DNA of 64,000 nucleotides from a virus (IMGVR_UViG_3300046779_001841:252222-316221); one strand, 5' to 3'; numbered from the stretch's first letter, positions 60,197-64,000 are shown. Made by a program: numbers and translations. The notes: generated from the letters alone by a model not told the origin.

Positions 60197-60652
60197 TTAA
60201 ATTTTTTCTAGCTTGATACCATTGCTTTTTAAATATTCCAAACCTTGATTATGAACACCATTCTCATCCATTGGACAAAAGACTTGTTTTATACCTGCAT
60301 GATGAATGGCTTTTGCACACATTAAACAAGGATCACAATTTACGATCATTATCTTATTATGAGTACTTTGACCAATCCTACAAGCATTTAATATTGCATT
60401 AAGTTCTGCATGATGGCAACCAACATCATTTTGAGTTCCACTCGCTATATTTTGTTCTGTTCTCAAACATACTGAACCACCACAAAGATCCCCTGTTTTA
60501 CAACCTCTTGGATTTCCATTATAACCATCAGAGATGATACTATTTGTAAGATCATCTAAAATCATAGCAGAAACTTTTCTACGAGTACAGGGACTTGTTT
60601 CAGCCAGCAAATTGCATTGTTTAATTCTTATTTCTAAAAGATGTTTTTTCAT
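60197..60652 (-). CDS. dCMP deaminase family protein
   Basis: SPCTRRKV, GYNG, HAELNA and PCLMC motifs. Confidence 0.92.
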   Translation of the reverse strand: MKKHLLEIRIKQCNLLAETSPCTRRKVSAMILDDLTNSIISDGYNGNPRGCKTGDLCGGSVCLRTEQNIASGTQNDVGCHHAELNAILNACRIGQSTHNKIMIVNCDPCLMCAKAIHHAGIKQVFCPMDENGVHNQGLEYLKSNGIKLEKI

Positions 60653-60696
60653 GTCTTATTCCATATAGATGAAAGATAAGACATGATACAACAAAT

Positions 60697-61578
60697 TTAA
60701 TTGTTCGCATTATCATTATACATAAGAGATAAAAGTTCGCCCATCCAACCTTCAGGTCTATGACCAACTAAACCAATATAAAACATAGTGCCTTTAGATG
60801 GATTTAAAGAAACATAATCGCCAATACCTTCTGCAAAAGATCTAGTCTTATTTGCTTTCATAGTACAATAAGTTTCACCTTGTTTATTCTTAGTGAATGT
60901 ATTGATATATCCTTGATAGTAATTCACAAGATACTTCTCACTGTTTGTCAAAACTGAATCAATATTTTGTACTGCTTGTGCTACAAAATTTGTACTTTGT
61001 TCAATTCTATATTGTGGACTTGGTCTTGCGGATCTATCTTTGAAATAAATAACTTCAAACAATCTCATTTGACCACCACTTTCTTCATTTTCAGATGGCT
61101 TTACAAACTTGAAACGATAAAGACCAACTTTCTTACCAGAAGGTGCTTTACCATTATAACCATTAAAACTTAATTCATGTCCCATAGGTTCGCCTTGTAG
61201 ATTTACTTTCTTTACAGAAATAACACAATCTGAACCATTTGAAACAATCTTTGTAATGATCGCAATTTGTAAATGCAATTCACTACATACTTCTTGATTT
61301 TGTGGATGTTCGCAGTTGTTCTTATCAATCTTAACATATTCACCAACAGTCAAATCACCTGATGTTCTTACGATTGATTCTGGATCAATATATGTTGCAC
61401 CGCTTTTAGTGAGTTTTTGTGCAAATTCACTTTCAGTCATTGGATTATCACCACCCAAAGATGACTTTAAAATTGCCCAAGATGCAAAATCTGCTTCTTT
61501 ACCTGTTTTAGGTGATGGGATTTTTTTAAAAACTTGTTGCAAGTTAATATCTGCAAGACTTGATTTTTTCTTAGCCAT
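60697..61578 (-). CDS. Hypothetical protein
   Basis: 293 aa ORF with AGGA SD. Confidence 0.75.
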   Translation of the reverse strand: MAKKKSSLADINLQQVFKKIPSPKTGKEADFASWAILKSSLGGDNPMTESEFAQKLTKSGATYIDPESIVRTSGDLTVGEYVKIDKNNCEHPQNQEVCSELHLQIAIITKIVSNGSDCVISVKKVNLQGEPMGHELSFNGYNGKAPSGKKVGLYRFKFVKPSENEESGGQMRLFEVIYFKDRSARPSPQYRIEQSTNFVAQAVQNIDSVLTNSEKYLVNYYQGYINTFTKNKQGETYCTMKANKTRSFAEGIGDYVSLNPSKGTMFYIGLVGHRPEGWMGELLSLMYNDNANN

Positions 61579-61635
61579 TTAAGAAGTCCTTTCAAAAAAG
61601 AAATTTTTGAAAAAGAACTTTTAATAAATAAATTA

Positions 61636-62181
61636 TTAATCCAAGCCAACGGACTTGAACAACACATTATTCATACAATTTGCTAGATCATCTTTTAATG
61701 AATATGAATTATTAAAATATAAACATGGCAAGTTCTCATTACGAACTGAATATCCAAATCCTTTTTCTGTTAAGACACCTGCTTTTTCATATTCTAAATC
61801 TTTACCAGCAACATCAGATAAATCCTTTAAGACTTTCTTATATAGAACTCTATTCTTGACTTTGGTTATATAAAATTCACCAGTCAAATTATTGAACTCA
61901 TATCTCAATCTTGGATTTAATTCAAAATATGGCATTAAGATTTCTATCTCTCCATTTGGAAATTGTAATCCACGAACATCTTTAAAGATGACTTTCTTAA
62001 TTCCATAGTTGCCAAACTTCTTGTTTAGAAATCTCATCTGATAACTTACTGCTTCAGACATCTCTAATAATAGATCATCTAATTCTGTTCTTGCCTTTTC
62101 TTTTAAGACTGGCATATCAGATAATCTTATTCTGTTGTTCATTGGTGAACAGGTTAGTAAATTTGATAGATTCATATACAC
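61636..62181 (-). CDS. Hypothetical protein
   Basis: 181 aa ORF; TTGTTT-N17-TATAAG promoter upstream. Confidence 0.75.
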   Translation of the reverse strand: MYMNLSNLLTCSPMNNRIRLSDMPVLKEKARTELDDLLLEMSEAVSYQMRFLNKKFGNYGIKKVIFKDVRGLQFPNGEIEILMPYFELNPRLRYEFNNLTGEFYITKVKNRVLYKKVLKDLSDVAGKDLEYEKAGVLTEKGFGYSVRNENLPCLYFNNSYSLKDDLANCMNNVLFKSVGLD

Positions 62182-62246
62182 TTTCCTTATGTATTGACGA
62201 ATATATAGATATACTTATATCTGTTTTCGATTAAAAAAACAAGTAT

Positions 62247-62591
62247 TTATCGTATAGAAATTACACGATTATTTAAATATTCATCTTCTACTTGCTCAAT
62301 AAATGAACTCAATTCACTTAATGTGAATAAATTCTTTTCTCTACAAGTATCACTACCTACTTTTACCTTAACCCTTAAACCTATTTCAAGATCTCCTTGA
62401 TCTTCAAAGGTACACCAACTCACATCCAATTCCACTTTATAGCAAACTGCACTTTTTAAGTGTGCTTTTCCTATCGGTGAATAAAAGATTTCTCCTCTAA
62501 ACACTTTGGTTTTGCTAAATTCACTTTCCCAATTCCCAATCACTTTAAAACCACTTTCTGTTAAGTGATTTTTGATTTCCTGCACTTTCAT
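62247..62591 (-). CDS. Hypothetical protein
   Basis: 114 aa ORF with AAGGA SD. Confidence 0.75.
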   Translation of the reverse strand: MKVQEIKNHLTESGFKVIGNWESEFSKTKVFRGEIFYSPIGKAHLKSAVCYKVELDVSWCTFEDQGDLEIGLRVKVKVGSDTCREKNLFTLSELSSFIEQVEDEYLNNRVISIR

Positions 62592-62649
62592 AAAAAATCC
62601 TTTTCAAAAGAAAATAAAATATCTGTAAAGATTTTACAACCTTTAAAAA

Positions 62650-63417
62650 AGAAATTCCTATGTTTTTTCGCTTGATCACTTTTATCCAGATAAAAAAATA
62701 CCTGTTAAAGATTTTTTCATCTTTAAATAAAGTCGTTCTCTTGCTCTTATCCTATATTTACCATGCACGAAAAGATACCATCAACAAGCATTACTTTCCA
62801 CATTCGCAGACCAAGTAAACTCTATTCTCTCTTTCAACACTACACAATCTGGAAACTAAGATATTACCAGTGCCTATGATCAAGGGATCTGATTACCTTA
62901 TCATAGGTCTTTTGTTTCTCCATTGTCCGAAGACGAAGAAACCATCTCTTTGCATCGTTTCAGATGCTAAACACAAAACCCCTACGGATTTTACTTATAC
63001 TAGATGTATAAATAGAATATATAGAAGTATTATATGTATTGGAAGAGATGTTGGAAGCAATAGGAAACACCTTAATGGATTTCTTTCAGTCCTAACCCCA
63101 TGCTCTATATTATTTCAAAGGTAAGCACAGATGGTGTCCTGACATCTATCTAAGTATCATTTTCATTCCCACTTAAAAAAGTGATCAAGAATTACTTTTG
63201 AAGTCTTAAACTATGCCTTAAAGGATTCTTCTTTATCGAAGTAATCATAACCTAGCACGAGTTTCAGTAAAGTTACTAGATACCTGCTATATCTAAAGAA
63301 TTTCTTCTTATAAGTATTCTTTCTAATCTTAGACTACCTTTACATCTAAGACTTTATTTACTTGATCGTAACCAAGCAGAACCTTATCTACATTTAAACT
63401 TAAATGTCTTTACCTAT
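62650..63417 (-). ncRNA. Candidate large structured non-coding RNA (~770 nt)
   Basis: More than a dozen stems, a 13-bp perfect long-range helix (62671-62683/63177-63189), UUCG and UACG loops, G-U pairs consistent with the minus strand, no minus-strand ORF, and a promoter upstream. Ends are approximate. Confidence 0.65.
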
Positions 63418-63424
63418 GGATTTT

Positions 63425-63453
63425 CTTATAATGATTTCTTTTCTGGAGTGCAA
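63425..63453 (-). promoter_or_regulatory. Sigma70-type promoter for the candidate ncRNA
   Basis: TTGCAC-N17-TATAAG; the nearest downstream ORF is about 830 nt away. Confidence 0.65.
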
Positions 63454-63494
63454 ATTTTTTTTCTTCTTTTAAAAAAGCCTTTAGAAAAAGTCGC

Positions 63495-63682
63495 CAATAA
63501 ATCTTTCTTATTTTCCGATAAATCCTATCTTCTTTGACAATAAAGAAGTTCTTTATTCTCTAGCAATAAATCTTATCTTCTTTGACAATAAATCTTATCT
63601 TTATTCTCTAGCAATAAATCTTATCTTCTTTGACAATAAATCTTATCTTCTATCTTATTCTTATTCTCTTTGACTATAAATC
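63495..63682. repeat. Iteron-like array
   Basis: Eight (C/G)AATAAATC-like units spaced 21-26 bp (last gap 40); exact 48-bp tandem duplication at 63551-63598/63599-63646. Confidence 0.85.
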
Positions 63683-63718
63683 TCTTTCACTGCCTTTATA
63701 TTATATTATTCTTTCTTT

Positions 63719-63739
63719 ATGTTTTGCGAAGCAAAACAT
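63719..63739. other. Perfect hairpin with a GCGAAGC mini-hairpin core
   Basis: ATGTTTTGC-GAA-GCAAAACAT, a 9-bp stem with a 3-nt loop. Confidence 0.8.
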
Positions 63740-64000
63740 CTTCTACCATAATCTCTTCTTTGTCTGTTTACTTATACTAGATGTATAAATAGAATATATA
63801 GAAGTATTATATGTATTAGATATAAGATATATCTTATCTAAAGATAATCTATATTAGATATACCTATCTTGAGATTTTGATTTTTGAATTTTGTTTCTCT
63901 TACTTATACTAGATGTATAAATAGAATATATAGAAGTATTATATGTATTGGATATAAGATATATCTTATCTAAAGATAATCTATAAGATAGAATAAGAGA

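What the first reader, a model, noticed from the sequence alone, without database searches (positions are those of the whole stretch)
62650..63417. Candidate previously undescribed large structured RNA (~770 nt) with its own promoter
In an otherwise wall-to-wall coding genome, 62592-64000 has no credible ORF. The minus strand starts from TTGCAC-N17-TATAAG (63453-63425), using the -10 box seen at other promoters here. It then folds nearly continuously: 63390-63407 (7 bp); 63360-63377 (7 bp, two G-U, UACG loop); 63327-63351 (8 bp, G-U); a domain closed by 63191-63197/63239-63245; and a perfect 13-bp helix 63177-63189/62671-62683 that closes a ~520-nt domain. Inside that domain are 63127-63149 (G-U); an 8-bp helix 63043-63050/62943-62950 enclosing hairpins 62992-63014 (9 bp, G-U), 62975-62992 (7 bp, G-U) and 62952-62967; then 62914-62942 capped by C(UUCG)G; 62873-62907 (8+4 bp); and 62706-62725 (7 bp). 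At least seven pairs are G-U on the minus strand but A-C on the plus strand, and both UNCG loops read correctly only on the minus strand. I found no RNase P, tmRNA, group I/II intron or hammerhead signature. Established: phages carry large ornate ncRNAs of unknown function (GOLLD, ROOL). Inference: a new RNA of that scale, which unusually contains one copy of the 49-bp repeat from the neighbouring putative origin.
Basis: partly seen in the sequence, partly recalled or inferred. Interest (0 to 1): 0.85.

Follow-up and report, generated by a model that had tools for sequence, protein, structure and literature searches.

The report
New large structured RNA in jumbo phages
A 316-kb freshwater phage and its close relatives carry, beside their likely replication origin, a gene for a roughly 670-nucleotide RNA that makes no protein, folds into about two dozen conserved helices and matches no known RNA family, so it is a rare new large structured RNA whose function is unknown.

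Summary
The finding holds, with corrections. The window is the end of a circularly assembled 316-kb, 31% GC phage genome. The stretch lies in a 1.65-kb divergent intergenic region at the genome's cumulative GC-skew minimum.

Seven distinct full-length homologues, plus 3' halves, came from freshwater metagenomes. The core (window 63424 to 62744, minus strand) is 81-94% identical between four of them. The adjacent genes are only 70-86% identical.

The consensus fold has 212 pairs. Of these, 98.9% of cells are paired and 28 pairs show compensatory double changes, against 2-6 in slid controls. About 34 G-U pairs would be mismatches on the plus strand.

A TTGNNN-N17-TATAAG promoter is conserved upstream, and TATAAG is enriched fivefold upstream of genes in this genome. 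There is no conserved ORF and no Rfam match. Metatranscriptome contigs from three studies cover parts of the RNA.

The 13-bp "closing" helix and two others are not conserved, one hairpin lies outside the core, and the 3' boundary is about 62748 rather than 62650.

The family is confined to one narrow phage clade. Function is unknown. Most likely it is a trans-acting folded RNA, possibly linked to the origin through a shared 49-nt element. The scan had noted only this same stretch before, on no other DNA.

The parts
63425..63453 (-). Promoter of the RNA gene: -35 TTGCAC (63453-63448), 17-nt spacer, -10 TATAAG (63430-63425). The predicted 5' end is about 63418.
   Evidence: Read from the sequence. 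Both hexamers are kept in all 7 homologues (TTGCAC, TTGCTA, TTGCAA, TTGCCA, TTGACT; TATAAG, TATAAC, one TTAAGA) while the spacer varies. TATAAG is 5-fold enriched 30-50 nt upstream of genes, often with TTGCAA or TGTAAA at -35. The start site is inferred, not mapped.
62744..63424 (-). Conserved core of the structured RNA (681 nt in the window, 676-701 nt in relatives).
   Evidence: Alignment A2 of 7 distinct sequences has 90% mean column identity. RNAalifold gives 202-212 pairs, 28-29 of them compensatory. Conservation stops at about 62748 on the 3' side.
63390..63407 (-). 5' terminal hairpin, variable in sequence and length.
   Evidence: Each homologue folds a hairpin here of 5 to 9 or more bp with different sequence. 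There is a 12-nt insertion in the L002/L005/L023/L024 group.
63224..63387 (-). 5' domain. Helix 63378-63387/63310-63320 encloses the UACG-capped hairpin 63360-63377 and hairpin 63325-63353. Then come hairpins 63296-63309, 63277-63295, 63247-63276 and 63224-63246.
   Evidence: Per-helix counts: compensatory pairs in 63378-63387/63310-63320 (2), 63325-63353 (3), 63296-63309 (1) and 63224-63246 (2).
63057..63219 (-). Central domain, the most conserved part (87-98% identical between homologues). It has long invariant paired and unpaired runs.
   Evidence: Alignment A3 and model R1. 100% of cells are paired but only 3 pairs are compensatory, because little varies.
62991..63040 (-). Copy of the 49-52-nt repeat inside the RNA. 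It forms a long imperfect hairpin arm within the three-way junction closed by 63043-63050/62943-62950.
   Evidence: Repeat family D2. Present at the same RNA position in all homologues, and identical to the two upstream copies within each genome except L023. Pairing is; the pairs are invariant, so covariation says nothing about them.
62756..62944 (-). 3' domain: UUCG-capped helix 62914-62942, hairpin 62872-62909, hairpin 62849-62870, and the compound helix 62760-62848 enclosing 62783-62825.
   Evidence: Alignment A5 of 10 sequences: 99.5% of cells paired, 18 of 61 pairs changed on both sides, 0 of 500 shuffles reach this, and slid controls give 0-3.
62750..63065 (-). Proposed long-range helix 63060-63065 with 62750-62755 (UCCUAU/AUAGGA) that closes the 3' half.
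   Evidence: RNAalifold. Five pairs are invariant and one has a one-sided U-A to U-G change. It is consistent with the data but weakly supported.
62626..62730 (-). Context, not part of the core: two units of a hairpin-plus-U-rich motif (AAAGRUUGUAAAAUCUUUA..AUUUUAUUKUCU) between the RNA and the 114-aa gene. Relatives have 1-4 units.
   Evidence: Repeat D3. Copy number varies. The motif occurs nowhere else in the genome. It could be a terminator, a promoter (TTGTAA-N17-TATTKT) or a binding site; this is undecided.
63506..63985 (.). Context: iteron array (63506-63671) and the two further copies of the 49-nt repeat (63768-63816, 63900-63948), upstream of the RNA promoter. The cumulative GC-skew minimum of the genome falls at window 63777.
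   Evidence: The contig ends overlap by 20 nt, so the region runs on into genome 21-248 and then the DNA polymerase III delta'-like gene.

Best explanation
This is an independent gene for a roughly 670-nt non-coding RNA of a previously undescribed family. It is transcribed on the window's minus strand from a conserved host-type (sigma-70-like) TTGNNN-N17-TATAAG promoter. It folds into a multi-domain structure of about 23 helices: a 5' domain, a nearly invariant central domain and a 3' domain, with UNCG-capped hairpins and multiway junctions.

Shown: conservation, a strand-specific conserved secondary structure, a conserved promoter, absence of coding potential, and presence in RNA libraries.

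Inferred: the RNA acts in trans through its three-dimensional fold, as an RNA-only particle or as the scaffold of a ribonucleoprotein made early in infection, in the manner proposed for the large phage RNAs GOLLD and ROOL. Its nearly invariant central domain would then be the functional core.

Its place next to the origin-like iterons, and the 49-nt element it shares with them, suggest but do not show a link to replication control.
For: - Homologues: 7 distinct full-length sequences and 4 distinct 3' halves, always between the delta'-like gene plus iterons and the 114-aa gene.
- Conservation: between four of them (window, L005, L009, L025) the RNA core is 81-94% identical and the central domain 87-98%. 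The two flanking small genes are 70-83% identical and the delta' gene 81-86%.
- Covariation: 212 consensus pairs, 98.9% of cells paired, 28 pairs with compensatory double changes against 2-6 in slid controls and at most 21 in 1000 shuffles.
- A non-circular check: single-sequence MFE folds projected on the other six keep 90-93% pairing, with 17-22 compensatory pairs.
- The 3' domain alone: 18 of 61 pairs changed on both sides, 0 of 500 shuffles reach this.
- Strand: the same pairs are only 82.7% paired on the opposite strand. The minus-strand MFE is 42-50 kcal/mol lower. The UUCG and UACG loops read only on the minus strand.
- Promoter: both hexamers are conserved while the spacer varies, and TATAAG is 5-fold enriched upstream of genes.
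- No conserved ORF under code 11, TGA=W or TAG=Q; there are non-triplet indels.
- Variable spacing to the next gene, through 1-4 repeat units, argues for a separate gene rather than a fixed leader.
- Contigs from four metatranscriptome libraries of three studies cover parts of the RNA at 88-100% identity.
- No Rfam family matches.
Against: - Function is not shown by anything here.
- The sequences fall into about three lineages at 79-97% identity, so the compensatory changes stem from few evolutionary events. No R-scape-type test that accounts for phylogeny could be run.
- The central domain barely varies, so its fold rests on energy and on 100% pairing only.
- The thermodynamic z-scores are modest for the core (-2.9, from 20 shuffles).
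- The RNA-library evidence is from assembled contigs. It gives no strand and no ends, and DNA carry-over is not excluded.
- The 5' and 3' ends are not mapped, and no canonical terminator was found, so read-through into the downstream operon is possible.
- Unlike GOLLD and ROOL it is not near tRNA genes.
- It was found only in one narrow clade.
Confidence: 0.6

Rival explanations
1. Origin-linked RNA. The transcript serves replication itself. It could be a structured pre-primer or R-loop-forming RNA, as ColE1 RNA II or the T4 origin transcripts are. Or it could regulate initiation by carrying an RNA copy of the 49-nt origin element.
For: - The gene starts about 50 nt from an iteron array and about 350 nt from the genome's cumulative GC- and AT-skew minima, at window 63777 and 63905.
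- It is flanked on the other side by replication genes: delta'-like, delta C-domain-like and ribonucleotide reductase-like.
- The 49-52-nt element inside the RNA is identical to the two copies in the origin region within each genome and differs between genomes, so the copies evolve in concert.
- The size, own promoter and elaborate fold resemble RNA II; this comparison rests on my own knowledge.
- On the plus strand the repeat carries a sigma-70-like TTTACT-N17-TAGAAT, so an antisense transcript is conceivable.
Against: - The RNA is transcribed away from the iterons, not into them.
- Long invariant single-stranded segments and many peripheral UNCG-capped helices are more than a primer needs.
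- The skew minimum also coincides with the switch in gene orientation, so the origin itself is inferred.
- Relatives that share the replication genes lack the RNA, so replication in this phage group does not need it.
Confidence: 0.2
2. A very long structured 5' leader. It would act in cis to regulate the downstream operon on the same strand: the 114-aa and 181-aa proteins, dCMP deaminase and C5 DNA methyltransferase.
For: - It is on the same strand as the 114-aa gene and directly upstream of it.
- No canonical intrinsic terminator lies between them.
- The RNA, the 114-aa family and the 181-aa family have the same narrow distribution.
- One RNA-library contig of a relative spans the start of the 114-aa gene and the motif upstream of it (record 11).
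Against: - The distance between the core and the start codon varies by about 250 nt, through 1-4 copies of an interposed motif that itself looks like a promoter or terminator.
- At 670 nt it is several times longer than known bacterial leaders.
- The last 150 nt before the gene are the least conserved part.
Confidence: 0.1
3. A DNA-level feature. The conserved pairings reflect folded single-stranded DNA or cruciforms of the replication origin, and no functional RNA is made.
For: It lies next to origin-like repeats, and G-T wobbles can also form in single-stranded DNA.
Against: - A conserved promoter of the genome's own type sits exactly at the 5' edge.
- C(UUCG)G and UACG loops are stability motifs of RNA; this rests on my own knowledge.
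- No 670-nt structured single-stranded DNA element is known.
- RNA-library contigs cover it.
Confidence: 0.04
4. A divergent member of a known catalytic or housekeeping RNA class (group I or II intron, RNase P, tmRNA, GOLLD, ROOL) that the Rfam models miss.
For: Its size is in the range of those classes, and Rfam models can miss divergent phage members.
Against: - No hit at gathering thresholds. Only noise at E up to 10 in the window, and nothing at E up to 5 in four homologous loci.
- ARAGORN finds no tmRNA.
- It has a promoter at its 5' edge and no flanking exons.
- No intron-encoded ORF.
Confidence: 0.04

Closest known systems
GOLLD RNA (Rfam RF01998)
   Same: A large (more than 600 nt), elaborately folded non-coding RNA encoded by phages, with no protein partner or function known. 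GOLLD members were first found in lake metagenomes, and its expression rises during phage lysis (PMC12286853).
   Different: - No match to the Rfam model.
- Not near tRNA genes; the only tRNA is 85 kb away.
- It lies at an origin-like region and contains a repeat shared with it.
- Known only from one narrow clade.
- Its quaternary structure is unknown.
ROOL RNA (Rfam RF03087)
   Same: A phage or prophage RNA of about 580-660 nt with many helices. It can be very abundant, its function is unknown, and it forms RNA-only cages (PMC12286853).
   Different: No model match. The genomic context differs, with no tRNA island. The habitat (freshwater) and the phage type (316-350-kb genomes) also differ.
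ColE1 RNA II (pre-primer) with antisense RNA I
   Same: A structured transcript of about 550-700 nt with its own sigma-70 promoter at a replication origin, whose fold matters for function. This comparison rests on my own knowledge and was not tested here.
   Different: Here transcription runs away from the iterons. There is no evidence of an RNA-DNA hybrid, of RNase H processing or of an antisense partner. The replicon is a phage with its own replisome genes.
phi29 pRNA
   Same: A phage-encoded structured RNA with its own promoter near a genome landmark. It works as a homo-oligomeric structural component (cited in PMC12286853, ref. 35).
   Different: pRNA is about 174 nt, has a defined role in the packaging motor, and is limited to phi29-like phages. 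There is no sequence or model similarity.

Membership tests
GOLLD (RF01998) | Match to the family covariance model (conserved 3' domain). | tested here: not met
   cmscan of the window at gathering thresholds gave 0 hits. At E up to 10 on 62400-64000 there was no GOLLD hit. At E up to 5 on four homologous loci there were 0 hits.
GOLLD / ROOL | Usual location next to tRNA genes or tRNA islands in phages and prophages. | tested here: not met
   No tRNA in the 64-kb window. The genome has a single tRNA-Met at 230478, about 85 kb away.
ROOL (RF03087) | Match to the family covariance model. | tested here: not met
   no hit.
GOLLD / ROOL | Homo-oligomeric RNA-only cage. | not testable with these tools
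   Needs native gels, mass photometry or cryo-EM of the transcript.
Group I / group II introns | Catalytic core detected by Rfam models, and insertion within a host gene with flanking exons. | tested here: not met
   No hit inside the RNA. The only intron-type match (group-II-D1D4-3, 14 bits, E 5.8) lies in the 114-aa coding region. A promoter sits at the 5' edge and there are no split ORFs around it.
RNase P RNA / tmRNA / 6S | Match to the family model, or ARAGORN tmRNA detection. | tested here: not met
ColE1-type RNA II pre-primer | Transcript runs into the origin, forms a persistent hybrid there, and is controlled by an antisense RNA. | tested here: inconclusive
   The gene adjoins the iterons and the GC-skew minimum but is transcribed away from the iterons. 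A plus-strand promoter-like site lies inside the shared repeat. Hybrid formation and antisense RNA cannot be tested with these tools.
Conserved structured ncRNA (generic) | Compensatory base changes that keep the helices across homologues, above controls. | tested here: met
   28 compensatory pairs against 2-6 in slid controls and at most 21 in shuffles. 18 of 61 pairs in the 3' domain, with 0 of 500 shuffles reaching this. Projection of single-sequence folds also holds.

The most novel reading that the evidence does not exclude
A new class of large ornate phage RNA that is functionally coupled to the replication origin. The RNA carries, as a folded hairpin arm, the same 49-52-nt element that occurs twice as DNA in the origin region and that co-evolves with those copies. 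The abundant early RNA could therefore compete for, or deliver, the factor that recognises this element. That would set the timing or copy number of phage replication. It might also assemble into a higher-order RNA particle, as GOLLD and ROOL do.
Probability: 0.15. Interest if true: 0.88.

Novelty: new variant of a known kind. Interest (0 to 1): 0.72.

Why it matters
Very few classes of natural structured RNA longer than 500 nt are known outside ribosomal RNA and self-splicing introns. OLE, GOLLD and ROOL are the main ones. Their recent cryo-EM structures showed unexpected RNA-only assemblies, yet their functions remain open (PMC12286853).

This RNA adds a further class, with clear covariation support and a defined promoter. 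Unlike GOLLD and ROOL, it sits in a telling context:
- It lies at the origin-like divergent region of a jumbo phage.
- It shares a co-evolving sequence element with that region.

That context gives a concrete, testable lead to function, which the other large phage RNAs lack. The RNA is also short enough for direct structural work.

The narrow distribution and the uncultured host limit its immediate reach.

Tried and rejected
**Homologue searches that gave chance hits or nothing**
- Phage GenBank records, blastn of 62592-64000: no match.
- 17-22-nt pattern scans gave chance hits in coding DNA: L003, L027 and L028 in tape-measure genes, and L118 in a Woesearchaeota MAG contig with no other similarity.
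- More distant relatives (TerL 55-93% identical; 24 records, five at least 90% complete; also the 485-kb LR745208): models R1 and R2 found nothing at E up to 1. Both models hit the own genome once, as positive controls.
- With filters off, the syntenic regions upstream of their delta' genes gave only weak, repeat-driven hits of 16 bits or less, judged to be noise.

**RNA-library controls**
- An adjacent coding stretch of equal length (61900-62580) was searched as a control: no RNA holder was listed.
- In the laid runs X1-X3, the flanking genes 60500-62590 had no true cover. By the tools' own rules, neither blank counts as evidence on expression.

**Flanking proteins**
- The 114-aa and 181-aa proteins have no Pfam or PHROG family and only weak Atlas leads.
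- The AlphaFold models were too poor for fold searches, with pLDDT 49 and 35, so no RNA-binding partner could be proposed.
- The 114-aa ORF beside the delta' gene of relative G009 is unrelated.

**Other ideas dropped**
- T4-type late promoter: TATAAATA inside the repeat is not clearly enriched upstream of genes (6 against 2.2 expected), so this reading was dropped.
- The downstream motif AAAGGTTGTAAAATCTTTA is not a genome-wide promoter or terminator motif.
- A pseudoknot between GUAAAG (loop of 63325-63353) and CUUUAC (63267-63272) was considered. The one variant, L025, is uncompensated, so it was rejected.

Full report
**Setting**

The window is the last 64 kb of a single-contig virus genome of 316,221 bp and 31% G+C. 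The first and last 20 nt of the contig are identical, so the assembly is circular. The non-coding stretch 62592-64000 continues into genome positions 21-248, which gives a divergent intergenic region of about 1.65 kb.

To its right lie plus-strand replication genes: a DNA polymerase III delta'-like gene starting at genome position 249, a delta C-domain-like protein, and then a ribonucleotide reductase-like gene, the last read from the translated sequence. To its left lie minus-strand genes: a 114-aa protein, a 181-aa protein, a 293-aa protein, dCMP deaminase and a C5 DNA methyltransferase.

The cumulative GC-skew and AT-skew minima of the whole genome fall at window 63777 and 63905. That is inside the repeat block just upstream of the candidate RNA's promoter. 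This point is also where gene orientation switches, so an origin here is plausible but inferred.

**The observation**

- No ORF longer than 84 aa exists in 62592-64000, and none is conserved.
- For 62650-63425 the minus strand folds to -197 kcal/mol (z -4.6) and the plus strand to -147 (z -3.4).
- For the conserved core the values are -168.8 (z -2.9) and -127.1 (z -1.9), from 20 shuffles each.
- On its own this is a moderate signal. The decisive evidence is comparative.

**Homologues**

The flanking 181-aa and 114-aa proteins each have only seven clusters of relatives among 5.8 billion proteins, at 64-98% identity. Fetching their contigs, one IMG/VR relative and one pattern scan of metagenome contigs gave seven distinct full-length copies of the region:
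- the window;
- L002, identical to L026 and L112-L117 and recovered from JGI, NCBI, ENA and Logan samples;
- L005;
- L009;
- L023;
- L024;
- L025.

Four distinct 3' halves were also found (L015, L017, L021, L111). Many short contigs end exactly at the 49-nt repeat inside the RNA, as expected at an assembly breakpoint.

Synteny is constant: delta' gene, repeats and iterons, promoter, RNA, 1-4 copies of a short motif, then the 114-aa gene.

Between four of the genomes (window, L005, L009, L025), the RNA core (window 62744-63424) is 81-94% identical and its central domain 87-98%. Where compared, the 114-aa gene is 70-81%, the 181-aa gene 74-83% and the delta' gene 81-86% identical. Conservation drops abruptly 5' of about 63407, where only the two promoter hexamers persist, and 3' of about 62748.

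**Structure and covariation**

On the seven-sequence alignment A2 (709 columns), RNAalifold predicts 202-212 pairs.
- 98.9% of cells form standard pairs.
- 62 pairs vary.
- 28 pairs keep pairing through changes on both sides.
- Only 17 cells are broken.

The controls are clearly lower.
- Sliding the 3' partner by 1-3 columns gives 36-49% pairing and 2-6 compensatory pairs.
- 1000 within-column shuffles give at most 21 compensatory pairs, and never reach the observed pairing.

Because RNAalifold itself uses covariation, I also took each single-sequence MFE fold and projected it on the other six sequences. This kept 90-93% pairing with 17-22 compensatory pairs.

For the 3' domain (10 sequences, structure from model R2), the counting tool gives 99.5% pairing and 18 of 61 pairs changed on both sides. 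No shuffle of 500 reaches this, and slid controls give 0-3. The central domain is 100% paired but almost invariant, so it has only 3 compensatory pairs.

The strand is settled. The same pairs read on the plus strand are only 82.7% paired, with 256 broken cells, because about 34 G-U pairs become C-A. The C(UUCG)G and UACG loops also exist only on the minus strand. One relative has UACG in place of UUCG, still a UNCG loop.

Caveat: the sequences form about three lineages, so the changes reflect few events. No phylogeny-aware test such as R-scape was available.

Supported:
- 63360-63377;
- 63325-63353;
- 63043-63050/62943-62950;
- the hairpin inside the repeat, about 63000-63018;
- 62952-62967;
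- 62914-62942;
- 62872-62909;
- the 5' hairpin 63390-63407, which every homologue has in a different sequence and length.

Undecided: 62975-62992. It has one compensatory change, but a competing pairing fits equally well.

Not supported:
- The 13-bp helix 63177-63189/62671-62683 is absent in relatives, and its 3' arm lies outside the core.
- 63191-63197/63239-63245: U-to-C changes at 63243 are compensated in the local hairpin 63246-63239/63231-63224 instead.
- 63127-63149: the 3'-arm changes are uncompensated.
- 62706-62725 is part of the downstream motif.

A 6-bp helix, 63060-63065 with 62750-62755, may close the 3' half instead. It is consistent with the data but nearly invariant.

**Promoter**

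All seven homologues keep a TTGNNN hexamer and a TATAAG-like hexamer (TATAAG, TATAAC, or TTAAGA in L005). These are 17-18 nt apart and the spacers are unrelated.

In this genome TATAAG occurs 54 times in the 80 nt upstream of predicted genes on the sense strand, against 10.2 expected. It peaks 30-50 nt before the start codon, often with TTGCAA or TGTAAA about 17-18 nt upstream. The start site near 63418 is inferred.

**Expression**

Five metatranscriptome runs from four studies hold words of the RNA. I laid four of them.
- Two freshwater runs of one study each hold a contig of 184-185 nt at 99-100% identity, at 63132-63351.
- A riverine run and an estuarine run hold contigs of relatives' RNA, at 62751-62951 and 63020-63326.

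These are assembled contigs. They show presence in RNA libraries but give no strand, no ends and no level, and DNA carry-over cannot be excluded.

**What it is not**

- Rfam 15 gives nothing at gathering thresholds in the whole window.
- It gives only unrelated noise at E up to 10.
- It gives nothing at E up to 5 in four homologous loci.
- ARAGORN finds no tRNA or tmRNA nearby; the only tRNA is 85 kb away.
- There are no flanking exons, no intron ORF and no nearby transposase, reverse transcriptase or Cas gene among the genes examined.

It is therefore not a member of GOLLD, ROOL, OLE, the group I or II introns, RNase P, tmRNA or 6S.

**Distribution**

Covariance models of the central domain (R1) and the 3' domain (R2) each hit the own genome once, at E 2e-37 and 4e-68. 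Neither model gave a match at E up to 1: R1 was run on all 24 records of more distant relatives (TerL 55-93% identical; five at least 90% complete; including the 485-kb LR745208), and R2 on four of the near-complete ones.

The relatives' regions upstream of the delta' gene are 0.5-1.2 kb and lack the RNA, the 49-nt repeat and the 114-aa gene. The RNA, the 114-aa family and the 181-aa family thus share one narrow, roughly genus-level distribution in freshwater to estuarine samples.

**The shared repeat**

A 49-52-nt element lies once in the RNA (62991-63040) and twice upstream of the promoter (63768-63816 and 63900-63948). In the RNA it forms a long imperfect hairpin arm.

Within each genome the three copies are identical, while they differ between genomes by a substitution in the L005 type and by several changes plus a 3-nt insertion in the L009 type. 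L023 is the exception and may be a chimeric contig. Such concerted evolution points either to frequent gene conversion or to one factor that reads all copies. It is the best lead to function.

On the plus strand the element carries a sigma-70-like TTTACT-N17-TAGAAT. On the minus strand it ends in TATAAG, but without a -35 element of the genome's type.

**Interpretation**

It is well supported that this is a gene for a conserved, strand-specific, multi-domain structured RNA of a new family; I put this at about 0.9.

How it works is inferred.
- I favour a trans-acting folded RNA or RNP scaffold made from a host-type promoter (0.6).
- The main rival is an origin-linked role, as a pre-primer, R-loop former or regulator through the shared element (0.2).
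- Next is a giant cis leader of the downstream operon (0.1).
- A DNA-level structure or a missed known class is unlikely (0.04 each).

The flanking small proteins could not be characterised. They have no family, and their AlphaFold models have pLDDT 35-49.

**Comparison and novelty**

The closest kinds are the large phage RNAs GOLLD and ROOL, whose functions are also unknown and which assemble into RNA-only cages (PMC12286853). This RNA resembles them in size, complexity and phage origin. It fails their defining model matches and lacks their tRNA context, so it is a new class within that kind, not a member.

Three literature searches found no description of it. Earlier notes of this scan concern only this same stretch and its neighbours.

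Noticed in passing
window 62626-62650 and 62706-62730; L015:300-566: A motif lies between the RNA and the 114-aa gene: a hairpin AAAGGUUGUAAAAUCUUUA followed by AGGGAUUUUAUUGUCU. It is present in 1-4 tandem copies depending on the genome. The hairpin stems differ between units but still pair. The motif occurs nowhere else in the 316-kb genome. It reads equally well as a weak promoter (TTGTAA-N17-TATTGT), a weak terminator or a protein-binding site.
   Followed up: partly
window 63768-63816, 63900-63948 and 62991-63040: The three copies of the 49-52-nt repeat are identical within each genome but differ between genomes, so they evolve in concert. In L023 the RNA copy differs from the two upstream copies, which may mean a chimeric contig. 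Each upstream copy is preceded by the perfect 16-bp palindrome ATAAGATATATCTTAT.
   Followed up: partly
window 63777-63905 (genome 315998-316126): The global minima of cumulative GC skew and AT skew of the 316-kb genome fall inside the repeat block next to the iterons. This fits an origin, but it also coincides with the switch in gene orientation.
   Followed up: partly
whole genome (G000): TATAAG is a -10-like box. It occurs 54 times in the 80 nt upstream of predicted genes against 10 expected, mostly 30-50 nt before the start codon. TTGCAA or TGTAAA often lies about 17-18 nt upstream. TAATATAAG occurs 16 times against 1 expected. The genome has a single tRNA (Met, 230478-230551).
   Followed up: partly
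L110:3497-4225, L107:3640-4179, L109:3469-4228 (relatives G002, G008, G009): More distant relatives that lack the RNA share a conserved non-coding block of about 190 nt (69-73% identical), 80-300 nt upstream of their delta'-like gene. It may be their origin or promoter region.
   Followed up: no
window 62247-62591 and 61636-62181: The 114-aa and 181-aa proteins just downstream of the RNA have no Pfam or PHROG family and are found only in the genomes that carry the RNA. Some gene calls extend the 114-aa protein to 132-137 aa through an upstream start.
   Followed up: partly
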